Source: an uncultured virus (IMG/VR IMGVR_UViG_3300021093_000051) (taxonomy: Duplodnaviria; Heunggongvirae; Uroviricota; Caudoviricetes). Taken from it: DNA of 20,000 nucleotides. The notes beneath the pieces were generated by a model. That model searched no databases and was not told the origin of the DNA. It saw nothing but the letters and a program-made list of their open reading frames with translations. Both the position numbers and the translations under genes were made by a program. Every line of letters starts with the position of its first letter. The first letter of the stretch is position 1. The stretch covers positions 54,605 to 74,604 of the IMG/VR virus record IMGVR_UViG_3300021093_000051; one strand, given 5' to 3'. This document shows positions 3,162 through 16,400 of the stretch, in pieces.

Positions 3162-3180
3162 TTTTAAATAAGTTTTTTAG

Positions 3181-3190
3181 TTATTTATCT
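3181..3190 (-). promoter_or_regulatory. Putative late promoter AGATAAATAA
   Basis: 20 nt upstream of ATG 3161; same 10-mer as the other copies. Confidence 0.7.
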
Positions 3191-3224
3191 TTTAAAAAAA
3201 CCTAATTTTTAGTATCTTAATACC

Positions 3225-4016
3225 ATGCCAGAACTTGCAGAGATAAAAATAATGGCGGATTTCATAAATCTGGCCAGTAGAGAAAAGAGTTTTACTACCG
3301 TTGCCTTTTCAGAAAGCGCTATGAATAGAAAACTAGGTATAGTCCAGCCGACTGACCTTCAGATATTCAGAATCACAGCTGAGTCTCGGGGCAAGGAACT
3401 CATGCTCTCCTTGATCCAGGGAGATCAGGTTTTCATGAAGATCAGCTGCTCGATGGGCATGTCCGGCCATTGGGCGATGTGTCACCGAGATGATGTGCCC
3501 AAGCACACCCACATGAAATTTAATACGACCGATCAACTCAGTCTCTGCCTGGTCGACACTCGTCGATTTGCTAGGTGGAAGGTCGCATCCGACTGGTCCC
3601 AAAATCGTGGGCCCTGCCCAGTACACGAACCTAATCCTTTTAGGGAGAATATCCTCGCTAACCTAGGCAAGAAGGAATTCGATAAACCGATCCACCTGGT
3701 GCTCATGAACCAACAATATTTTAATGGAATCGGCAACTATCTTAGATCCGAGATTATGTTCCATGCCTCACAAGATCCTTTTGCTGATGCCCGTACTGCA
3801 CTCACACGAAATCCTTCAATACTCGATCTTTGTGAAAGGTTACCTAGGGAAGCTTACTTCCTAGGTGGAGGTCAGCTCAAGGACTGGCAAAACCCGTTTG
3901 AGGTTCCTGAAGGAGGATTTGACGAGTGGATGCAGTGTTACGGCAAGGGCAAATGGTTTACCGACAAGAACGGTCGACGTATGTGGTATCATCCCATCCA
4001 GCTTGAAACCAGTTAA
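3225..4016 (+). CDS. nei: Fpg/Nei-family DNA glycosylase/AP lyase, NEIL1 (endonuclease VIII-like 1) type
   Basis: Catalytic N-terminal PELAE, RGKEL (catalytic Lys), GMSG, DTRRF, H2TH motif FNGIGNYLRSEI, and a zincless finger DKNGRRMWY. Confidence 0.95.
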   Translation: MPELAEIKIMADFINLASREKSFTTVAFSESAMNRKLGIVQPTDLQIFRITAESRGKELMLSLIQGDQVFMKISCSMGMSGHWAMCHRDDVPKHTHMKFNTTDQLSLCLVDTRRFARWKVASDWSQNRGPCPVHEPNPFRENILANLGKKEFDKPIHLVLMNQQYFNGIGNYLRSEIMFHASQDPFADARTALTRNPSILDLCERLPREAYFLGGGQLKDWQNPFEVPEGGFDEWMQCYGKGKWFTDKNGRRMWYHPIQLETS

Positions 4017-4058: not shown

Positions 4059-4241
4059 ATGTTAAGAAAAATACTTGGCCCCAAGCTTTCAAAAAGGGAA
4101 CTCGCAATAATCAGGGAATGTTGTCGGCAAGTCTCTACCTCCATGGATAAAGCAGATTTTCAAAATAACTTGGATCCTGAGATAAAGGAGATCCACCAAG
4201 ACATTAAAAAGATCATAAAAAAACTAGAGACCACTACATGA
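4059..4241 (+). CDS. Small hypothetical protein
   Basis: 60 aa that fill the operon gap, with an ATGA overlap with the helicase start. Confidence 0.65.
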   Translation: MLRKILGPKLSKRELAIIRECCRQVSTSMDKADFQNNLDPEIKEIHQDIKKIIKKLETTT

Positions 4242-5830
4242 GAGATATTCCTCTTGAGTTTTCACCAAGACCTCAACAGGTCCAGATCTTGGACTTCGTA
4301 AAGTCTTCCATTAAGGAGGGTAAAAAATTCATCATGGTGGATGCCCCTACTGGAGTAGGTAAATCCTATGCGGCGATCATGATCGCTGAGTGGTATAGAA
4401 ACGAACACTCAAAAAAGGCCAAGACTGACATCATCACCAACACCAAGATCTTACAGGATCAATATGTGAAAGATTTTAAGTTCGCAGCTAATCTAAAGGG
4501 AAAGAACAATTACTGGTGTCGTCATCAAGGAATGGGATGCGGTGATGCCCAGGTGCTCAATAAGGCCAGTGGTAAAAGATGCAATGTCTGCCCACACAAG
4601 ATCTCTCAGACCAAATTCCTGAAGAGCCCAGTGAGCTTGGCAAATTTTCACCTGGTGACTGCATACTCAATGTATTCTCCAGACATGTTGGCAGAGCGTA
4701 GTTCTAAGCTACTCATAATCGATGAGGCACACGCCTTTGAGGAGACCTTTTGTGATTTTATTCTCTCTACCTATTCCGAACGTAGCCTAAAGATATTGGA
4801 CGTTTGGCACGATTGGATGGAAAGGGACCTTGATAACATCTCTAGCCTGACTGAACTTTCAGATTGGACTAAAGACGTATTGGTTCCCTTGCTTGATAAA
4901 AAAGCACACGATCTGCTTGACGAGGCCAAGGAGACTCGACAAAAAAAGAAAAAGGTAGACCTAATTAAAAAAGCAGACCACGTCGATAAGTCAATGTGTA
5001 AGTACAATCGATTCGTCAACGACCGTGAAAACTACAAGACTAATTGGACCTTTGAAAAAGATCTAGACCAGTGGGGCAAGACCAGAATCCTAGTCGAACC
5101 TATTTGGGGCAACCTATACCTAAAAGAACTTTTTTGGGACCAATACGATCATGTGATCATGATGTCGGGTACACTATTGGATCGAGAGCTCTTCTCCTTC
5201 ATCATGGGAATAGACGAGACCGAGTCAACTTACCTCGCCCTACCGTGTCCGTTTGAGGCAGCTAAACGACCGGTAATCTATGTAAAGTTCGGTAAGATGT
5301 CCTATTATAATAAAAAGGAGACCTTTACCAGAGCAGTACCGATCATCGGCAAGATCTTGGAGAAGAATCACGAACATAAGGGCATTATTCATACTGCCAA
5401 TTATGAGTTTAGCAAGTGGATTCAACAGACCATTCAGGATTCACGTTTAATATTTCATGATTCAGCAAGCCGAGAAAAATCTCTTGAAGATCATCTTACT
5501 TCTAAGATGGAAACCGTCCTAGTCTCACCATCGATGATCAATGGAGTCGACTTAAAGGATGAGCTTTCACGATTTCAGGTGATCCTAAAAGTACCTTTTC
5601 CTAATCTTGTTAGTACAAAGATAAAGAAGAGACTCGATACTCGTCCAGAATGGTACAATTGGAAGACCCTGGTGGATCTTTTACAGGCATACGGTAGATC
5701 AATAAGAAACGATGATGACTGGGCTGAGACCTACATCTTAGACGAGTGCTTCGATCAAATATTAAATAACAAAGGCGTGCCTAAGTATTTTTTAGACGCG
5801 TTGAAAGTAAAAAAATTAGCAAAGAAATAA
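4238..5830 (+). CDS. dinG: DinG/XPD (Rad3)-family Fe-S SF2 DNA helicase
   Basis: Q motif PRPQQ, Walker A APTGVGKS, Fe-S cysteines KGKNNYWC..GC..C..CP, DEAH box, MSGTL, GVDLKDELSRFQVILKVPFP, and motif VI QAYGRSIR. Confidence 0.93.
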   Translation: MRDIPLEFSPRPQQVQILDFVKSSIKEGKKFIMVDAPTGVGKSYAAIMIAEWYRNEHSKKAKTDIITNTKILQDQYVKDFKFAANLKGKNNYWCRHQGMGCGDAQVLNKASGKRCNVCPHKISQTKFLKSPVSLANFHLVTAYSMYSPDMLAERSSKLLIIDEAHAFEETFCDFILSTYSERSLKILDVWHDWMERDLDNISSLTELSDWTKDVLVPLLDKKAHDLLDEAKETRQKKKKVDLIKKADHVDKSMCKYNRFVNDRENYKTNWTFEKDLDQWGKTRILVEPIWGNLYLKELFWDQYDHVIMMSGTLLDRELFSFIMGIDETESTYLALPCPFEAAKRPVIYVKFGKMSYYNKKETFTRAVPIIGKILEKNHEHKGIIHTANYEFSKWIQQTIQDSRLIFHDSASREKSLEDHLTSKMETVLVSPSMINGVDLKDELSRFQVILKVPFPNLVSTKIKKRLDTRPEWYNWKTLVDLLQAYGRSIRNDDDWAETYILDECFDQILNNKGVPKYFLDALKVKKLAKK

Positions 5831-7693
5831 ATGGCTAAGAAATCGATAGAAACAAAGTATCAGAAACTGACTGACGTTGAACACGTTTTACTCAGACCCT
5901 CAATGTATATAGGGTCAGTCGCAATCCATACTGGAGATCAGTATCTCTATGATGGCCAAAAGGTCACAATTGAAGAAGTTCACTACAATCCAGGATTCAT
6001 TAAAATCTTTGACGAAATTATTTCTAATGCAGTCGATGAACATCGGCGAAATCCTAAGCTGAATGAGATCCGAGTAACTATTAATCTTGACACTACTGAG
6101 ATCACAGTATGGGATAATGGTGGAATTCCAGTAGAAAAACATCCAATCCATAAAGAGTGGATTCCTGAACTAATATTTTCAAACTTGAAGGCTGGCTCCA
6201 ATTTTGATGACTCAGAACAGCGTACTGTCGCAGGAACAAATGGTGTTGGTAGCAAGGCAACCAATATTTTTAGTAAAAAGTTCTCAATTTCAACCTGTGA
6301 TGGTAAGAATCGATTCGATCAGGTTTTTACTGAAAATATGAAGGATAGAACTAAAGTTAAAATTACCCCAGCTAAGAGAGGATTCACTGAAATCTCATTT
6401 TTTCCCGATCTAGAAAGGTTTAAGATGCGATTAATTGACGAAAAGTCCTTTCAGATCCTATTTAAACGTTGTTTGGACCTAGTTGCATGTAATAATAAGC
6501 TTACTCTAAAGCTAACTAAGATCAAGGAGAGTAAAAAAGAGGAATTTGTGCTTAAATTTAAGAGTTTTGAAGAATATATTCAGCTCTATGCTCAAGAATA
6601 TTTCTTTGAGGAGACAAAAGACTGGAAGATAGGCTTTGCAAAGTCGGAAAAAGGATTTCAGAACGTAAGTTTCGTCAATTCTGTCTATACGATGGACGGC
6701 GGAACTCACGTAGAGTACATTACTAATCAGCTAATCTCACAATTAAGGGAAATGATTAAGAAAAAACACAGAGTTGACGTAAAACCTAGCGATATCCGTA
6801 ACCATTTATACGTTTTTATCGATTCTACCGTAGTAAACTCATTTTTTAGCTCACAAACTAAGGAAAAATTGATCACCGAGGTCAAAGATTTCGGTACCAA
6901 GCACGAAGTTACTGATAAGATCGCAAAACTAGTGTTTAAATCTGAAATAATTCAGTCAGTTTTAGATTGGATCGAGAAAAAAGCCCTTGTACAAGAGCGA
7001 GCAGAGCTCAGAAAGTTAAATAAGGACTTGGACAAGACCAAAATACCTAAATTGATCGATGCTCAACGAAAAGGAGATCGTGGAATATGCATTTTAGGAA
7101 TTTATGAGGGGCTAAGTGCAGTTTCAGCAGTTCGTAAGTTTCGAGATACTCAAACGATCGGCGCATTCCCTCTAAAGGGTAAGTTCATCAACGTAAGTGA
7201 GATGAAACCTTCTGAAATCGCTAAAAACGACGAAGCTGTGCAACTAATGGCCTCTCTGGGACTAAAGCTAGGCGAAGAACCCAAAGGATTGCGATACGGT
7301 CGCATCTACATCTATACAGATGCCGATCCGGACGGTAGTCACATCGCAGCTACCCTAATTAACTTTTTTAATCGCTTCTGGCCCGAACTTTTTGATCAAG
7401 GTAGGGTATATAAGGTAATGACTCCGCTTGTAGTAGCTAAAAAAGGCAAAGAATCCATCAATTTTTACACCAACGATGAGTTTGATGCCTGGTTGAGGAA
7501 GAATAAGGCCACCTCTTGGGAAATCGAATACAAGAAGGGATTGGGTGCACTCGAGGATACTGAATACGAAGAAATAATCAAGAATCCATACCTTGTACAG
7601 ATCAAGAACGATAAAGACTATCGGGACTCACTTGAATCGTGGTTCGGTAAGGACTCTCAACCTAGAAAGGACCGAATCCTTGGAAATAATTAG
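5831..7693 (+). CDS. gp39: Type IIA DNA topoisomerase large subunit (ATPase + TOPRIM; T4 gp39+gp60 equivalent)
   Basis: EHVLLRPSMYIGS, DEIISNAVDE, DNGGIP, GTNGVGSK, EGLSA, PLKGK, TDADPDGSHI, YKKGLG. Confidence 0.96.
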   Translation: MAKKSIETKYQKLTDVEHVLLRPSMYIGSVAIHTGDQYLYDGQKVTIEEVHYNPGFIKIFDEIISNAVDEHRRNPKLNEIRVTINLDTTEITVWDNGGIPVEKHPIHKEWIPELIFSNLKAGSNFDDSEQRTVAGTNGVGSKATNIFSKKFSISTCDGKNRFDQVFTENMKDRTKVKITPAKRGFTEISFFPDLERFKMRLIDEKSFQILFKRCLDLVACNNKLTLKLTKIKESKKEEFVLKFKSFEEYIQLYAQEYFFEETKDWKIGFAKSEKGFQNVSFVNSVYTMDGGTHVEYITNQLISQLREMIKKKHRVDVKPSDIRNHLYVFIDSTVVNSFFSSQTKEKLITEVKDFGTKHEVTDKIAKLVFKSEIIQSVLDWIEKKALVQERAELRKLNKDLDKTKIPKLIDAQRKGDRGICILGIYEGLSAVSAVRKFRDTQTIGAFPLKGKFINVSEMKPSEIAKNDEAVQLMASLGLKLGEEPKGLRYGRIYIYTDADPDGSHIAATLINFFNRFWPELFDQGRVYKVMTPLVVAKKGKESINFYTNDEFDAWLRKNKATSWEIEYKKGLGALEDTEYEEIIKNPYLVQIKNDKDYRDSLESWFGKDSQPRKDRILGNN

Positions 7694-7842: not shown

Positions 7843-8184
7843 ATGACATTTGAGCGCTTTAAATTTATCACTGGCCTAATGGTCCAAAATTCATCTCGAG
7901 TAGACAAATCATACGACCAAGGAATAGACCTTGTAGAGTTTGTTGAAGGATATAATGTCGTAACCGAATATCTTTGGGGAGAGATATTGACCATTGAAGG
8001 ATTAGACTGGTTCAACTGGTTCATGTACGAAAAGAATTATTTGCAAGACGGAATAGGCAATCCAGAAATGAATGCATATCATAAGATAAACGATGGAGAA
8101 CAGGTAGAAATAGTCAAAGACCTAGAAGGTCTACATCAATATTTAGTAGAAAACAATTATTTTAAATGCGAAAGCCAGAAATAA
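7843..8184 (+). CDS. Hypothetical acidic protein
   Basis: 113 aa, co-oriented with its neighbours, overlapping the start of the second topoisomerase subunit. Confidence 0.75.
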   Translation: MTFERFKFITGLMVQNSSRVDKSYDQGIDLVEFVEGYNVVTEYLWGEILTIEGLDWFNWFMYEKNYLQDGIGNPEMNAYHKINDGEQVEIVKDLEGLHQYLVENNYFKCESQK

Positions 8185-9533
8185 AGACGGTCACAGATTA
8201 CCTGGACAACGACTATAAAGAGTACGCAGTATACGTAGTTGAGGAACGAGCGATACCTTCCGTTATAGACGGGTTTAAGCCAACTCAACGTAAGGTGATA
8301 TTCGTAGCTAATAAAGTTTGGAAGAACGGCTCTGAAAAACCAATGAAGATCTTTCAATTAGCCGGTAGAGTAGCGGCAGACGCTTTTTATCACCATTCAG
8401 ACGGCTCGCTTAATTCTGCAATCATCGGCATGGCACAAAAGTTTAAGAACTCAATGCCAGTATTAGAAGAAATTGGGCAATTCGGTTCCCTACGTTCACC
8501 AGAAGCAGCCGCTCCTCGTTATATTGCAACCAAGTTACATAAGAACTTTAGATTGCTTTACAAGGATTTTGAGCTACTCGAGCCTAGGTACGAAGAGGGT
8601 AATGAGATCGAGCCCAAATATTTTCTACCAATCATTCCGACCGTCCTCCTGAATGGCGGTAGCGGGATCGCAGTAGGCTTCGCAACAAACATATTAAATC
8701 GCAATCCAATTAGCCTAATAGAGGCTTGCCTAAAATCATTAGACGGAAAGAAATACTCTGAACCCACTCCATGGAACCGAGAGTTTTCAGGCGAATGCTC
8801 GCTAATTGATTCAGAAAAGTTTTCCTGGATATTTAGCGGCAAGTATGATGTTAAAAACACGTCTACTGTTACCATTACTGAATTACCTCCTTCAATTACT
8901 TATGAGAAATTCGATCAGCATCTAATAGATCTTGAGGACACTCGACGAATTGCTAGTTATGAAAATAACTGCAAGTCTAATATCAGTTACACCATCAAGT
9001 TTAGACGAGAAGATCTCAAGATGCTTGCTGATTCGACCAGACTAAAGAGATTGTTAAAGATGGAAGAGCGTCAGACTGAGAACTTTACGGTACTTGATGA
9101 ACATGGTAAACTTAAGATATTTGGTTCTGCCAGTGAGATCATCGAGTATTTTGTGCAGTTTAGGCTCTCTTTCTATGATAAAAGAAAGCAATTTATCATC
9201 GATACCCTAAACCAGGAACTTACCCTTCTCTCAAATAGGGCCAGATTTGTGAAATCCATCATCGGCGGTAAACTAAAGATCAATAACGTGCCTAGAAAAG
9301 AGATACTTCTCTATCTACAAACTGCGGATTTTGATGAGATTAATGGATCATATCAATATCTACTCTCAATGCCCATTCATTCCCTAACTAAGGAAACATA
9401 TGAAGACCTGATTAGTGCTGAGGAGAAAAAAAGAGTTGAGCTTGAAGAGATCAAGAAGAGAGAACCCATACAAATGTACAGAGAAGATTTACAAGAGTTG
9501 AAAAAGGCTCTTCAAAAAGAGTATAATAGCTAA
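8166..9533 (+). CDS. gp52: Type IIA DNA topoisomerase medium subunit (breakage-reunion; T4 gp52 equivalent)
   Basis: RAIPSVIDGFKPTQRK, YHHSDGSL, catalytic AAAPRY, and LLNGGSGIAVGFAT. No beta-pinwheel CTD or GyrA box. Confidence 0.96.
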   Translation: MRKPEIKTVTDYLDNDYKEYAVYVVEERAIPSVIDGFKPTQRKVIFVANKVWKNGSEKPMKIFQLAGRVAADAFYHHSDGSLNSAIIGMAQKFKNSMPVLEEIGQFGSLRSPEAAAPRYIATKLHKNFRLLYKDFELLEPRYEEGNEIEPKYFLPIIPTVLLNGGSGIAVGFATNILNRNPISLIEACLKSLDGKKYSEPTPWNREFSGECSLIDSEKFSWIFSGKYDVKNTSTVTITELPPSITYEKFDQHLIDLEDTRRIASYENNCKSNISYTIKFRREDLKMLADSTRLKRLLKMEERQTENFTVLDEHGKLKIFGSASEIIEYFVQFRLSFYDKRKQFIIDTLNQELTLLSNRARFVKSIIGGKLKINNVPRKEILLYLQTADFDEINGSYQYLLSMPIHSLTKETYEDLISAEEKKRVELEEIKKREPIQMYREDLQELKKALQKEYNS

Positions 9534-10407: not shown

Positions 10408-10776
10408 TTATTTTAGGGTCAATAAATATTTAAGCTTATTGATTGCAGCCAGCATCTCATCTCTTAAGTTTAAGAGATCACTGTCCTTGTTACCATCTAG
10501 TTTATGATTAAAACTTAATAAGAATTCTACAATAGTGTCCAGGAATTCCTCTATGTTTACCTCGCCTATATTACCCAATAGGATGGTGTCAGTCTCTCCT
10601 TCTAGAGCAACCCGACCGTATTTTCCCATGTATATTTCCATAAAATCATCAGATAGTGCACTAAGAGTATCATAGATCCCCCCGTATGCAATGTGCTTGG
10701 AATAAGATTGTGTCTGCCAATGAAACACTTTAAACTGGGATTGGATACCTAAAAAGGTAGACATTAAGCTAGTCAT
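10408..10776 (-). CDS. Dps/ferritin-like four-helix protein (DUF5856-like)
   Basis: FHWQT, H...GGIYDTL...DDFME ferroxidase-like residues and RDEM...KLKYLL C-terminal helix. Has its own late motif. Confidence 0.8.
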   Translation of the reverse strand: MTSLMSTFLGIQSQFKVFHWQTQSYSKHIAYGGIYDTLSALSDDFMEIYMGKYGRVALEGETDTILLGNIGEVNIEEFLDTIVEFLLSFNHKLDGNKDSDLLNLRDEMLAAINKLKYLLTLK

Positions 10777-14564: not shown

Positions 14565-15572
14565 TTAAGTTTTATTTTCGCAATTTGATAATATTGCTTT
14601 TAATTTAGTTAAATCTTTGTTTGATAACTCATCAGTTTGCGGCAGAGTCACGTTAAACTTTACTAAATACTCTCCTAATTTACCCTGTTCATCCAGTATG
14701 CCCTCATTGGGTATGGAGAACTTAAGGTTTGATGCCGATCTGGGACTATTAAAGTCGGCCTCATATTTTTTACTTACAATCGTCTCTATCTTGATCTTTT
14801 CTTCTGTGAACACGACCTTAGATAACGGAAGATCGACCGTCTGTACTATCTTGTTACCCTCAATCTTAATGTTTTCAGGCACCACTAGTTCTAGCGTCAC
14901 GTGTAGGTCTCCCATTAGAGGTACTTGTTCTATCTCTCCCCATATGTTTAATTGGGTGATAACATCCTCATTTCCCAAGCCAGGTACTCTAGCGGATATT
15001 ATGTAGGCTCCACTGTCCTTCTTAATCAAGATATACTTTTTTCTAAGATCGATCGTGATGTTAATCTCCTTCTCCTCCTCTATCTTATCGAACGTAAGCA
15101 TGTTACCCGACTTGCCCGTATAATTTATCTTTTCTCGCGTAAAACCAATCTCTATCTTTTTACCCAATAAGGCGTCCTTTAGTTCTATTTTATCGTGCAC
15201 ATAAAGGTTTAGGTGATCAGTTTTAGGCTGAGCTGGGTGAGTTCGGTGTTGGGTCTTCTTAGCTCTATCGTTAGACCTTCTCCTAAAATCCGCGTCTGCG
15301 AAGTTTCTCACGAAATCATCGAAACCAAAACCCGCGCTCTCGTAACTAGAAGACCAGTTATTTGTTGAGTTAGTTTTCTTATCGTATTCGCCTCTCTTTT
15401 TCTCATCTGAAAGGACAGTATATGAGTCTGAGATCTTTTTAAATAGCTCTTCCGATTCCTTGTTGCCGTTTGTCTTGTCCGGATGGTATTTTACTGCAAG
15501 CTTACGGTAGGCTTTTTTGATTTCTTCTTGAGTGGCAGTCTTAGGGACTCCTAAGTTCGCATAGTGATCCAT
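14565..15572 (-). CDS. dnaJ: DnaJ/Hsp40 co-chaperone (class B-like, no zinc finger)
   Basis: J domain DHYANLGV...[19 protein letters not shown] region GFGFDDF, and C-terminal motifs [26 protein letters not shown]. No CxxCxGxG repeats. Confidence 0.92.
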
Positions 15573-15635
15573 TAATTGGGATTTTTTCTAAACTTGATCT
15601 AATCTATATTGTATAAGAAAAAAAGAAAAGGTTCT

Positions 15636-16400
15636 ATGGAAAAGGCAAAAATATGCTTATCGATAAAGTGGGAGGGTCAAGATCGGGAAAATAACCTGAC
15701 TCGGGTAAAAAGTGTGATTCGATCCTTTAGTCTTGGAACGATTGATTATCTTGCTCTTGATCCAGCTAAGAGTAATATCTTGACCTCCAAGGAATACGAT
15801 GAGATCGATTTAGAGTGTAGGGAAAGAGGAATCTCATGGTTTCCTATCGCCTCCTCCATTCAAGATGTTGATCTGACTCGACCTTATTATGCTAAATTAC
15901 CCAACGGGAAATCGGGTTTTATGCTCGGCATTGCTGAAACCCACATAAACGACTTTACTCTTCTTAATTATGCAAAAGACTGTGCCGACTATGTTGTTCT
16001 CTATACTGGCGGAAACACTCAACGCGATATCGATCGAGCGATTGAGGCAGTTCAGCCGGATCTGGTCGTCCATCACTCCTTTGGAGAACCTCGACTCGAC
16101 TACATCAAGTATCTTCAAGCTATCTCGATCGAATTTGAAAAGAGGTATCTAGTCGGCTTTAAAAATAACTCTTACATGATATCGGACGTGCTCTTATTGG
16201 CCGCATCGATGCTTGGTGCAAGCTTTCTAGAGTCTACTATTAGTATCCATGAGCACAATGAAACCGACCTATTAGAAAACACCTGGTGTTTTGCTGACCT
16301 TATTGATATTACCAATCACATAAAGACGATAAATACTTCTAGGGGAGGATATGAGGCCCGCAAGATAACCAAAGTCGAAAAAGAAATGATGAAAAGATGA
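15636..16400 (+). CDS. Divergent NeuB (N-acetylneuraminate synthase)-fold protein, probably inactive
   Basis: LTSKEYDEIDLECRERGISWF, INDFTLLNY, VVLYTGGNTQRDIDRAIE, LVGF, AASMLGASFLE and GGYEARKITKVEKEMMKR track NeuB motifs in order. ATG 15636 is preferred over TTG 15609. Confidence 0.65.
   Translation: MEKAKICLSIKWEGQDRENNLTRVKSVIRSFSLGTIDYLALDPAKSNILTSKEYDEIDLECRERGISWFPIASSIQDVDLTRPYYAKLPNGKSGFMLGIAETHINDFTLLNYAKDCADYVVLYTGGNTQRDIDRAIEAVQPDLVVHHSFGEPRLDYIKYLQAISIEFEKRYLVGFKNNSYMISDVLLLAASMLGASFLESTISIHEHNETDLLENTWCFADLIDITNHIKTINTSRGGYEARKITKVEKEMMKR

What the first reader, a model, noticed from the sequence alone, without database searches (positions are those of the whole stretch)
3225..4016. 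Phage glycosylase that looks like animal NEIL1 rather than bacterial Fpg/Nei
Seen versus human NEIL1 as recalled, collinear along the whole length: ITAESRGKELMLSL / ISASARGKELRLIL; GMSGHW..DDVPKHTHMKF / GMSGSF..EELPRHAHLRF; LCLVDTRRFARW / LCFVDIRRFGRW; RGPC..FRENILANLGKKEFDKPI / RGPC..FRENVLRNLADKAFDRPI; FNGIGNYLRSEI / FNGIGNYLRAEI; NPSILDLC / NPDLLELC; WMQCYG / WLRCYG; DKNGRRMWY / DRHGRTIWF. It has a zincless finger instead of the bacterial C4 zinc finger and lacks the disordered NEIL1 C-terminal tail. Inference: a minimal NEIL1 in a tailed phage bears on the origin of metazoan NEIL1 (phage/bacterial source or inter-domain transfer). It is embedded in a phage operon, so contamination is unlikely.
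Basis: partly seen in the sequence, partly recalled or inferred. Interest (0 to 1): 0.85.

Follow-up and report, generated by a model that had tools for sequence, protein, structure and literature searches.

The report
NEIL1-type DNA repair glycosylase in phage
A large uncultured T4-like phage carries an intact DNA-repair glycosylase far closer to animal NEIL1 than to bacterial Fpg/Nei, part of a big, mostly phage-borne family that is the nearest kin of eukaryotic NEIL1, though who gave the gene to whom stays open.

Summary
ORF 3225-4016 (+) encodes a 263-aa Fpg/Nei-superfamily glycosylase. It matches human NEIL1 at E 1e-48, against 9e-7 for the best bacterial Fpg and 9e-6 for mimivirus Nei1. 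Its model (pLDDT 95) superposes on NEIL1 at TM 0.83-0.87. The catalytic Pro2, Glu3, Lys57 and Arg251 are present, and there is no C4 zinc finger.

The gene lies in a gp23-type phage replication module and is under purifying selection (dN/dS about 0.07). It keeps its place beside a helicase and topoisomerase II in 60 of 82 related viral contigs.

The family is large: 750 protein clusters and 460 viral stretches. It is not phage-only: pelagic Poribacteria and Neomarinimicrobiota MAGs carry it in ordinary chromosomal settings.

Eukaryotic NEIL1 is not animal-only. Amoebozoan and apusomonad proteins group with animal NEIL1 in 130-146 of 150 likelihood quartets. The root, and so the direction of transfer, is unresolved. 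ML tree software was unavailable, so home-made NJ and quartet analyses were used.

I found no paper describing phage NEIL1-type enzymes. This scan met the family before on another genome (e1-5727291).

Verdict: a real, likely functional new member of a known enzyme kind, of moderate evolutionary interest.

The parts
3225..4016 (+). NEIL1-type (zincless-finger) Fpg/Nei-superfamily DNA glycosylase/AP lyase gene, 263 aa (P0001)
   Evidence: ORF. PDB phmmer: human NEIL1 1.2e-48. Pfam PF01149 4.4e-14. AF2 pLDDT 95 and Foldseek top 50 all human NEIL1, TM 0.83-0.87. dN/dS 0.07.
3225..3578 (+). N-terminal beta-sandwich catalytic domain (aa 1-118) with Pro2 (3228-3230), Glu3 (3231-3233), Lys57 (3393-3395), Met79, Arg113 and Phe115
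   Evidence: Pfam PF01149 over aa 1-118. These residues are invariant in 50 relatives. They align with human NEIL1 P2, E3, K54, M81, R118 and F120. The roles of the human residues are recalled from the literature.
3639..3797 (+). Helix-two-turn-helix (H2TH) DNA-binding motif (aa 139-191), including FNGIGNYLRSEI
   Evidence: Pfam PF06831 1.2e-5, 25.7 bits, below the 34.7-bit cut-off. Helices 136-180 in the model. Q163, G170, N171 and Y172 invariant.
3918..3989 (+). Zincless finger (aa 232-255): beta-hairpin 243-246/252-255 carrying Arg251, the equivalent of human Arg277
   Evidence: Pfam PF09292 Neil1-DNA_bind 6.7e-5, 23.0 bits, cut-off 25. Hairpin in the model. No CxxC pairs. Aligned with NEIL1 259-281.
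3162..3224 (.). AT-rich 63-bp divergent intergenic region upstream of the gene. No Shine-Dalgarno sequence; promoter not identified.
   Evidence: Sequence. Sigma-70-like sites are not above chance: 4 found against 6.2 expected.
4059..4241 (+). Small conserved ORF (60 aa) of unknown function between the glycosylase and the helicase; its stop overlaps the helicase start
   Evidence: Conserved in 17 of 86 related loci. No Pfam or PHROG hit.
4238..5830 (+). Superfamily-2 DNA helicase (Pfam Helicase_C_2/ResIII/DEAD), the conserved downstream neighbour
   Evidence: Pfam and phrog_2488 6.8e-99. Within 3 kb downstream in 63 of 86 loci.
5831..7693 (+). Topoisomerase II large subunit (gp39-like)
   Evidence: phrog_543 4e-189; Pfam DNA_gyraseB and Toprim. 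Syntenic in 43 of 86 loci.
8166..9533 (+). Topoisomerase II medium subunit (gp52-like)
   Evidence: Pfam PF00521 1.9e-83; phrog_551 2e-140.

Best explanation
The ORF encodes a functional, tail-less NEIL1-type DNA glycosylase/AP lyase of a large gp23-type (T4-like) phage of uncultured aquatic bacteria.

By homology it should work like NEIL1. The H2TH motif and the zincless-finger arginine (Arg251) grip the phosphates around a damaged base. Met79, Arg113 and Phe115 fill the gap when the base is flipped out. The N-terminal Pro2 amine attacks C1' to form a Schiff base, with Glu3 as the acid and Lys57 assisting. Beta,delta-elimination then leaves a one-nucleotide gap with phosphate ends.

The gene sits in the phage's replication module, followed by a helicase and topoisomerase II. 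The most likely role is base-excision repair of oxidised or ring-opened bases in phage DNA during replication. It would act alongside the phage's own UvdE, flap nuclease, polymerase and, in related phages, ligase.

Shown here: family, fold, residues, selection, synteny and distribution. Inferred: enzyme activity, substrates and biological role.

Evolution: the gene belongs to a zincless 'NEIL1-type' clade with a eukaryotic branch (animals plus amoebozoan and apusomonad protists) and a phage/bacterial branch. The split is old and the root is unresolved.
For: Family and fold:
- phmmer against PDB gives human NEIL1 1.2e-48 and the next subfamily 9e-7.
- The AF2 model has pLDDT 95.0 and pTM 0.92.
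- The Foldseek top 50 are all human NEIL1, TM 0.83-0.87, 34-38% identity.

Catalytic set: P2, E3, E6, K57, M79, R113 and F115 are invariant and R251 is at least 90% conserved in 50 relatives. They align with human P2, E3, K54, M81, R118, F120 and R277.

Zincless: 0 of 178 NEIL1-type sequences have the CxxC pairs, against 13 of 13 classical ones.

Real, selected gene: dN 0.078, dS 1.06, dN/dS 0.074 against the closest relative; 0.05-0.076 in the other 3 of 8 comparisons where dS was computable.

Stable phage gene: the helicase lies downstream in 63 of 86 loci (60 of 82 distinct contigs). The glycosylase there is 46-100% identical, the helicase 58-99%.

Repair context:
- UvdE (2.3e-53), a 5'-3' exonuclease, PolB, UvsX-like RecA and gp46/47-like proteins lie in the same record.
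- UvdE is directly upstream of the homologue in L018.
- ATP-dependent ligase is directly upstream in L085, L088 and L099.

Clade structure:
- NEIL1 type versus classical Fpg/Nei has 97/92% and 100% bootstrap support.
- Profile scores are bimodal, 270-335 bits against 91 or less.
- (animals, protists | any two phage/bacterial groups) is best in 136, 144, 130 and 146 of 150 quartets, with weight above 0.95 in 94, 111, 85 and 113.
Against: - No activity data exist for any member of the phage/bacterial branch.
- Two of the three Pfam domain hits are below their gathering scores: H2TH 25.7 against 34.7 bits, Neil1-DNA_bind 23.0 against 25.
- The lesion-recognition loop is not conserved. Human K/R242 and Y244 align with Gly216 and Leu218, so the substrate range may differ from NEIL1.
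- No polynucleotide kinase/3'-phosphatase, AP endonuclease or ligase was seen in the 74.6 kb held, which is about 30% of the genome. The downstream steps of the pathway are therefore unaccounted for in this phage.
- The gene is GC-richer than the window (47.2% against 39.1%; GC3 50.8% against 26.6-47.8% in seven neighbouring genes). This is unexplained.
- The phylogeny was made with home-written NJ and quartet code, not with a standard ML package.
Confidence: 0.8

Rival explanations
1. The glycosylase is not mainly a repair enzyme. It acts on host DNA or on modified bases, for example in host-genome degradation, processing of a phage-specific base modification, or counter-defence.
For: The record also encodes a thymidylate-synthase-family enzyme and a dCMP deaminase, families that some phages use to make modified pyrimidines (recalled). 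The lesion-recognition loop differs from NEIL1. Some divergent homologues sit next to MazG-like pyrophosphohydrolases and dCMP deaminases.
Against: The full NEIL1 catalytic and DNA-gripping set is conserved. The gene co-occurs with UvdE, and in other phages it sits beside UvdE or ligase. The chromosomal copies in Poribacteria and Neomarinimicrobiota lie among housekeeping genes, which fits repair. Nothing here shows that the phage DNA is modified.
Confidence: 0.12
2. Evolutionary reading A: eukaryotic NEIL1 came from the phage/bacterial pool. A phage- or bacterium-borne zincless gene entered an early eukaryote before the split of Amoebozoa, apusomonads and animals.
For: - In outgroup-rooted NJ trees the eukaryote clade is nested among short forms in 83 and 72 of 100 replicates. 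The short forms are monophyletic in only 3 and 5.
- Cluster C short forms tend to sit nearest the outgroup in quartets: 69, 61 and 79 of 150.
- The nearest outgroups, classical Fpg/Nei, are bacterial.
Against: - Backbone bootstrap is 5% or less.
- Outgroup quartets are mostly unresolved, with at most 11 of 150 at weight above 0.95.
- For the A, B and D groups the quartets favour (outgroup, eukaryotes | phage, phage): 85, 70 and 65 of 150.
- Long-branch attraction of divergent short forms to the outgroup is likely.
- Chromosomal bacterial carriers were found in parts of only two phyla.
Confidence: 0.4
3. Evolutionary reading B: the two branches are sister groups from an older, now rare cellular lineage, or an ancient eukaryotic gene passed to bacteria and phages. 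In either case the phage gene says little about where NEIL1 came from.
For: - There is a clean split between eukaryotes and all short forms.
- Pro5 is shared by the classical outgroup (10 of 10), animals (25 of 26) and protists (8 of 11). The window's lineage has Ala in 34 of 34 and the bacterial forms Ala or Ser in 13 of 13. So the window's lineage is in a derived group that excludes eukaryotes.
- Quartet trends favour (O,E|A,D) in 85 of 150.
Against: Phages of bacteria have no obvious route to eukaryotic genes. Cluster C and 12 of 86 'D' short forms also keep Pro5, so short forms may be paraphyletic. A single site can change more than once.
Confidence: 0.45
4. Artefact: the gene is eukaryotic contamination, a chimeric assembly, or a recent capture from an animal.
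For: High similarity to animal NEIL1. The gene is GC-richer than its window.
Against: - The same gene order recurs in 60 of 82 independent viral contigs, with co-divergence of the neighbours.
- Identity to any eukaryotic sequence is only about 40%.
- Eukaryotes form their own clade.
- The ORF is intact, intron-less and under purifying selection.
- It overlaps operon-style with downstream phage genes.
Confidence: 0.01

Closest known systems
Human/metazoan NEIL1 (endonuclease VIII-like 1; e.g. PDB 1TDH, 5ITQ-5ITY, 6LWA-6LWR, 8FTJ)
   Same: Same fold (TM 0.83-0.87). 34-38% structural-alignment identity, about 40% by phmmer. Same N-terminal Pro-Glu, Lys, void-filling Met/Arg/Phe and H2TH. Same zincless finger with the same W-x-x-C-Y...D-x-x-G-R-x-x-W-F/Y motif.
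   Different: - No roughly 100-residue disordered C-terminal tail.
- Shorter link between H2TH and finger: the human protein has about 18 extra residues around 199-217.
- The lesion-recognition loop residues 242 and 244 are not conserved.
- Ala5 instead of Pro5.
- Encoded by a bacteriophage.
Mimivirus MvNei1 (PDB 3A42/3A45/3A46, 3VK7/3VK8), called a viral NEIL1 ortholog in the literature (Imamura 2009, as cited in PMC3188539; passages read)
   Same: A virus-encoded Fpg/Nei-family glycosylase with a zincless finger.
   Different: Only distantly similar to the phage protein (E about 9e-6, 28 bits, against 169 bits for human NEIL1). Its virus infects a eukaryote. By sequence the phage protein is a far closer NEIL1 relative.
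Bacterial Fpg (MutM) and Nei (endonuclease VIII); phage-borne classical Fpg such as Bacillus phage SP-10 gp132
   Same: Same superfamily and the same Pro2/Glu3 chemistry. SP-10 shows that phages can carry Fpg-type genes.
   Different: They have a C4 zinc finger (13 of 13), 24-26% identity and E 1e-6 to 0.02. They are separated from the NEIL1 type with 92-100% bootstrap.
Chromosomal NEIL1-type genes of pelagic 'Candidatus Poribacteria' and Neomarinimicrobiota MAGs (L019-L027, L124-L127)
   Same: Same tail-less, zincless architecture, 36-39% identity, Ala or Ser at position 5.
   Different: They sit among housekeeping genes (Obg, RlmL, YbeY, PhoH, NrdR, UbiE, rhodopsin). There are two syntenic paralogues in Poribacteria. 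They form their own 100%-supported clades.
Plant/fungal Fpg homologues (e.g. Arabidopsis Fpg, PDB 3TWK/3TWL)
   Same: Also zincless (per PMC3188539; passages read).
   Different: E 8e-5 only. The cited paper argues that their zincless finger arose independently of the NEIL1 one.

Membership tests
Fpg/Nei (H2TH) DNA glycosylase superfamily | N-terminal catalytic domain with Pro2 nucleophile and Glu3 directly after the initiator Met | tested here: met
   The sequence starts MPELAE. PF01149 4.4e-14, 53.6 bits against a 25.5 cut-off, covering 1-118 of the protein and 1-117 of 117 model positions. P2 and E3 are invariant in 50 relatives.
Fpg/Nei (H2TH) DNA glycosylase superfamily | Helix-two-turn-helix DNA-binding motif | tested here: met
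   Pfam PF06831 is below its cut-off (25.7 against 34.7 bits). However, the motif aligns residue for residue with NEIL1, is helical in the model, and superposes on NEIL1.
NEIL1 subfamily (endonuclease VIII-like 1) | Zincless finger in place of the C4 zinc finger, with the conserved DNA-binding arginine (human Arg277) | tested here: met
   No CxxC pairs. Beta-hairpin at 243-246/252-255. Arg251 aligns with Arg277. PF09292 scores 23.0 bits, just under its 25-bit cut-off.
NEIL1 subfamily (endonuclease VIII-like 1) | Closer to NEIL1 than to any other Fpg/Nei subfamily (Fpg, Nei, NEIL2, NEIL3, plant/fungal Fpg, MvNei1) | tested here: met
   169 bits against 31.7 or less for all others. Clade support 92-100%. 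All of the top 50 Foldseek hits are NEIL1.
NEIL1 subfamily (endonuclease VIII-like 1) | Disordered C-terminal tail that binds partner proteins (a feature of animal NEIL1, not of the catalytic core) | tested here: not met
   The protein ends at residue 263, 8 residues after the finger. The short forms are 249-296 aa, the eukaryotic ones 330-791 aa.
NEIL1 subfamily (endonuclease VIII-like 1) | Lesion-recognition loop residues of human NEIL1 (K/R242, Y244; roles recalled from the literature) | tested here: not met
   They align with Gly216 and Leu218 in the GGGQLKDW loop. The alignment in this loop is gapped and so uncertain.
NEIL1 subfamily (endonuclease VIII-like 1) | Orthology with eukaryotic NEIL1 (same clade as the animal sequences) | tested here: not met
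   Eukaryotic sequences form their own clade, separated from all phage and bacterial forms in 130-146 of 150 quartets. The phage protein belongs to the sister or paraphyletic short-form branch. It is therefore NEIL1-type, not a NEIL1 ortholog in the strict sense.
NEIL1 subfamily (endonuclease VIII-like 1) | Bifunctional glycosylase / beta,delta-lyase activity on oxidised pyrimidines, Fapy and hydantoin lesions, including in bubble or single-stranded DNA | not testable with these tools
   This needs biochemistry.
T4-like (gp23-type) tailed phage, as carrier | Gp23-family major capsid protein, gp21-type prohead protease, baseplate hub, T4-type replication genes | tested here: met
   PF07068 1.8e-33, PF03420, phrog_430, topoisomerase II, gp41-like helicase, UvsX-like RecA and gp46/47-like proteins. 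The capsid is only 31-37% identical to the nearest deposited phages, an uncultured 462-kb phage and the Lak phages.

The most novel reading that the evidence does not exclude
The zincless NEIL1-type glycosylase arose among bacteria or their large phages. A phage- or bacterium-borne copy was then the source of NEIL1 in an early eukaryote, before animals, Amoebozoa and apusomonads diverged. On this reading a human base-excision repair enzyme descends from the phage/bacterial gene pool, and the phage enzymes are living minimal versions of its ancestor.
Probability: 0.35. Interest if true: 0.75.

Novelty: new member of a known kind. Interest (0 to 1): 0.55.

Why it matters
NEIL1 is a much-studied human repair enzyme. 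The classification paper I read (PMC3188539, passages) names its clade 'MeNeil1' alongside a plant/fungal 'PFNei' clade and discusses no viral relatives other than mimivirus.

This work shows a large, tail-less prokaryotic-virus and bacterial branch that shares the same zincless finger. That gives three things:
- An outgroup close enough to polarise NEIL1's features: the tail, the recognition loop and Pro5.
- Compact natural variants of about 260 aa for structural and substrate studies.
- A concrete, testable question about an inter-domain transfer.

It also shows that large aquatic phages carry their own oxidative-damage base-excision enzyme next to their replication genes, together with UvdE. 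That bears on how virions and replicating phage DNA cope with sunlight and oxidants.

Tried and rejected
- **ML phylogeny.** The tree programs could not be loaded. I replaced them with my own numpy NJ plus bootstrap and a Gonnet-derived quartet likelihood mapping. These are weaker than a standard ML analysis.
- **Rooting the NEIL1-type clade.** Outgroup quartets gave at most 11 of 150 resolved quartets per test and conflicting trends. I draw no direction from them.
Names came from the search for homologous proteins instead.
- **Atlas look-up of the Pelomyxa-type domain** gave no taxon information.
- **Megablast of the whole window against deposited phages** gave one 233-bp match at 72%, so there is no close sequenced relative.
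- **Promoter/terminator scan.** Nothing above chance.
- **Search for a PNK/3'-phosphatase partner in the record.** None was found in the 74.6 kb held. Metallophosphoesterases near divergent homologues are only a lead.
- **Host-phylum origin.** The NEIL1 type was found in 1 of 401 sampled genomes of the phylum of the Flavobacteriaceae MAG (G004). That one was the centre genome itself, on a contig that looks viral. I rejected this origin.
- **Contamination or chimera.** Rejected on synteny.
- **Literature.** Six full-text searches listed no paper on phage or bacterial NEIL1-type enzymes. One search failed on term syntax and was reworded. For PMC3188539, PMC12619734 and PMC9001079 I read matched passages only. 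Subscription-journal papers, for example the Pumo et al. 2009 book chapter on Fpg/Nei evolution cited in PMC3188539, could not be seen.
Full report
**1. The observation**

An ATG-to-TAA ORF of 263 codons lies at 3225-4016 on the + strand.

Against all PDB chain sequences the 15 best matches are all human NEIL1 (E 1.2e-48 to 9.6e-47). The alignment is collinear over residues 1-194 and 190-256.

Other subfamilies are far behind in the same search:
- T. thermophilus Fpg 9e-7
- mimivirus Nei1 about 9e-6
- Arabidopsis Fpg 8e-5
- E. coli Nei 0.023
- NEIL2 0.12

Pfam finds the N-terminal Fpg/Nei domain (4.4e-14). It also finds the H2TH and Neil1-DNA_bind domains just under their cut-offs. NCBIfam Fpg and Nei models all score far below their cut-offs.

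**2. Structure and residues**

An AlphaFold2 model built on 50 relatives has pLDDT 95.0 and pTM 0.92. It shows a C-terminal beta-hairpin at 243-246/252-255. Foldseek against the PDB returns human NEIL1 for all of the top 50 chains, with TM 0.83-0.87 for full-length chains.

Pro2, Glu3, Lys57, Met79, Arg113 and Phe115 are invariant among the 50 relatives, and Arg251 is at least 90% conserved. They align with human P2, E3, K54, M81, R118, F120 and R277. The roles of the human residues are recalled from the literature.

A CxxC...CxxC zinc finger is present in 0 of 178 NEIL1-type sequences and in 13 of 13 classical Fpg/Nei sequences.

Differences from human NEIL1:
- No C-terminal tail.
- A shorter H2TH-to-finger link.
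- Gly216 and Leu218 where the human protein has K/R242 and Y244.
- Ala5 instead of Pro5.

**3. Context**

The window is the last 20 kb of a 74.6-kb linear IMG/VR virus record, estimated about 30% complete.

Neighbouring genes:
- a 60-aa ORF
- an SF2 helicase
- two topoisomerase II subunits
- a Gp23-family capsid protein
- a prohead protease
- a J-domain protein
- a gp5-like hub

The rest of the record holds UvdE, RNR, GroEL/GroES, a flap nuclease, PolB, an intein-bearing UvsX-like RecA, a gp41-like helicase, gp46/47-like proteins, ThyA-family and dCMP deaminase genes.

The capsid is only 31-37% identical to the nearest deposited phages, an uncultured 462-kb phage and the Lak megaphages. There is no Shine-Dalgarno sequence before the gene. 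Two related contigs were binned into Flavobacteriaceae and Saprospirales MAGs. A Bacteroidota host is therefore plausible, but this is an inference.

**4. A real, old phage gene**

- dN/dS against the closest relative is 0.074 (dS 1.06). The other 3 of 8 comparisons with a computable dS gave 0.05-0.076. In 4 of 8 dS was saturated.
- The helicase lies within 3 kb downstream in 63 of 86 related IMG/VR loci. Four contigs were fetched twice, so this is 60 of 82 distinct contigs. Topoisomerase II follows in 43 of the 86 loci.
- In those loci the glycosylase is 46-100% identical and the helicase 58-99%.
- The remaining, more divergent copies (42-49% identity) also sit in phage DNA-metabolism or structural modules. 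ATP-dependent ligase is directly upstream in three of them. DNA polymerase, RNR, dCMP deaminase, metallophosphoesterase, tail tube and baseplate genes lie nearby in others.
- The gene's GC (47.2%) is above the window's (39.1%). I cannot explain this.

**5. Distribution**

- The 5.8-billion-protein search gave 750 clusters at E<=1e-3 among 886 candidates. The best 120 are 194-284 aa long and 51-87% identical. JGI often auto-names them 'endonuclease VIII-like 1'.
- The exhaustive representative search gave 1328 hits at E<=1e-3 and 141 at E<=1e-30.
- In IMG/VR, 460 of 489 pattern-matched stretches encode a relative.
- The nearest Atlas clusters are 63-100% viral in the rows listed.
- None of the 50,697 deposited phage genomes has the NEIL1 type. 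Six records matched, all classical Fpg at 24.6-26% identity. Records near the window's own may be hidden from that search.

**6. Bacteria**

One degenerate pattern scanned over one genome for each of 185,579 bacterial and archaeal species gave 11 loci, all in MAGs. This scan misses copies: in the phylum of the Neomarinimicrobiota MAG it found 1 of the 5 carriers later seen in a sample.

- Two loci have phage-like or ORFan contexts.
- Eight 'Candidatus Poribacteria'-type loci fall into two syntenic chromosomal settings: AddB-like/CorC/YbeY/PhoH/SAM-hydroxide adenosyltransferase, and Obg/sulfatases/RlmL...YkuD/NrdR. One MAG holds both.
- One Neomarinimicrobiota locus lies between UbiE, glutaredoxin and a rhodopsin.

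With the family profile the scores are bimodal: 270-335 bits for the NEIL1 type and 91 or less for classical Fpg/Nei. The NEIL1 type was found in:
- 5 of 151 sampled genomes of the phylum of the Poribacteria MAG (G001);
- 5 of 201 of the phylum of the Neomarinimicrobiota MAG (G003);
- 1 of 401 of the phylum of the Flavobacteriaceae MAG (G004), that one being the centre genome itself.

**7. Eukaryotes**

The long representatives are NEIL1 of crustaceans, molluscs, brachiopods, echinoderms, cephalochordates, cnidarians and vertebrates.

A second group comes from Pelomyxa schiedti (Amoebozoa), Thecamonas trahens (apusomonad) and EukProt transcriptomes. There a NEIL1-type domain is fused to a uracil-DNA glycosylase domain.

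**8. Phylogeny**

ML tree software was unavailable, so I wrote my own analyses.

Dataset: of 391 collected sequences, 42 were dropped for incomplete domain coverage. The rest were thinned at 70-100% identity to 191. Then 30 of 31 named eukaryotic sequences were added, giving 221.

NJ results:
- Kimura or gamma distances (100 bootstraps, 256 columns) and Gonnet-derived ML-gamma distances (60 bootstraps, 253 columns) separate the NEIL1 type from classical Fpg/Nei at 97, 92 and 100%.
- Poribacteria and Neomarinimicrobiota each get 100%.
- All eukaryotic sequences fall in one clade (32-42%).
- The backbone is unresolved, at 5% or less.
- Eukaryotes are nested among short forms in 83 and 72 of 100 replicates.

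Four-cluster quartet likelihood mapping (150 quartets per test):
- With the outgroup it is mostly unresolved, with at most 11 strong quartets per test. The trends partly disagree with NJ: (O,C|E,A) 69, (O,C|E,D) 79, but (O,E|A,D) 85 and (O,E|A,B) 70.
- Without the outgroup it is clear: (animals, protists | any two short groups) is best in 136, 144, 130 and 146 of 150, and strongly so in 94, 111, 85 and 113.

Pro5 is shared by the outgroup (10 of 10), animals (25 of 26), protists (8 of 11) and cluster C (5 of 6). The window's lineage has Ala in 34 of 34.

Conclusion: there is one old eukaryotic clade and one phage/bacterial assemblage. The window's lineage lies in a derived part of that assemblage. 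The root, and so the direction of transfer, is open.

**9. Mechanism**

Most likely this is a bifunctional glycosylase/beta,delta-lyase that removes oxidised or ring-opened bases from phage DNA during replication, together with UvdE and the phage's replication and recombination enzymes. Activity, substrates and role are inferred. The enzyme that would remove the 3'-phosphate was not found in the part of the genome held.

**10. Novelty**

Six full-text searches listed no description of phage or bacterial NEIL1-type enzymes.

In PMC3188539 (passages read) the NEIL1 clade is named 'MeNeil1', and the only viral enzymes discussed are those of mimivirus. The moraphage paper (PMC12619734, passages) describes large aquatic Bacteroidota phages with DnaJ and does not mention a glycosylase.

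This scan reported the same family earlier on another genome (e1-5727291). My independent tests agree with it.

It is a new member of a known enzyme kind, with a distribution that specialists would find fairly surprising.

Noticed in passing
window 14565-15572 (-); G000:C1 23807-25432 and 34942-35241 (+): The phage encodes a full DnaJ-type J-protein (J domain plus DnaJ_C) beside its head genes. Elsewhere in the record it also encodes GroEL- and GroES-type chaperonins. DnaJ is reported as typical of the recently named aquatic 'moraphages' of Bacteroidota (PMC12619734, passages). Whether this phage belongs to that lineage was not tested.
   Followed up: partly
P0257 (Pelomyxa schiedti, 791 aa), P0419 (Thecamonas trahens, 816 aa), P0386, P0389, P0391, P0394: Protist proteins fuse an N-terminal NEIL1-type glycosylase domain to a C-terminal uracil-DNA glycosylase domain (PF03167). 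That puts two base-excision enzymes in one chain. They are annotated only as 'uracil-DNA glycosylase'.
   Followed up: partly
L019-L025, L027 (Candidatus Poribacteria MAGs); G085 has two copies: Pelagic Poribacteria carry two syntenic paralogues of the NEIL1-type gene. In two such MAGs (G001, G002) the family profile found no classical Fpg/Nei at E<=0.001. The NEIL1 type may therefore be their only Fpg/Nei enzyme. MAG incompleteness is not excluded.
   Followed up: partly
L018 7074-7955 and 8001-8780; G000:C1 19394-20341: UV-damage endonuclease UvdE lies directly upstream of the NEIL1-type gene in a related phage contig binned into a Saprospirales MAG. It also occurs 38 kb from the NEIL1-type gene in the window's own phage. 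This suggests a recurring phage photodamage/oxidative-damage repair pair.
   Followed up: partly
G000:C1 43544-44443 (L135:7344-8243): The UvsX/RecA-like gene carries Hint/intein-splicing domain matches at its C-terminal end, and the ORF stops at 299 aa. It is probably an intein-interrupted recombinase.
   Followed up: no
G000:C1 40320-41738 (L135:4120-5538): The family-B DNA polymerase ORF is only 472 aa, covering the exonuclease domain and the start of the polymerase domain. Similar 471-aa 'DNA polymerase' ORFs occur in L015 and L100. The polymerase may be split into two genes in these phages.
   Followed up: no
window 10408-10776 (-); G000:C1 32077-32346: The phage encodes a DUF5856 protein, called 'starvation-inducible regulator' in PHROGs, next to the capsid gene. 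It also encodes a histone H1-like Hc1 protein.
   Followed up: no
window 3225-4016 against the rest of the window: The glycosylase gene is GC-richer (47.2%, GC3 50.8%) than the window (39.1%) and most neighbours, despite long residence in the lineage. Unexplained.
   Followed up: no
L014, L090, L094 (about 0.9 kb downstream of the homologue); L085, L088, L099 (directly upstream): In divergent phages the NEIL1-type gene lies near a metallophosphoesterase (phrog_1649) or directly after an ATP-dependent DNA ligase. These are candidates for 3'-phosphate removal and nick sealing after beta,delta-elimination.
   Followed up: no
G000:C1 2376-18931 (-): A run of very large ORFs (1896, 1195, 705, 317 and 1005 aa) has no Pfam match at E<=1e-4. 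They are presumably tail or fibre proteins.
   Followed up: no
window 15609-16400 (+): A 263-aa ORF has a weak NeuB-family (sialic-acid synthase-like) match, 2.5e-5 and 24.3 bits, between the DnaJ gene and the baseplate genes.
   Followed up: no
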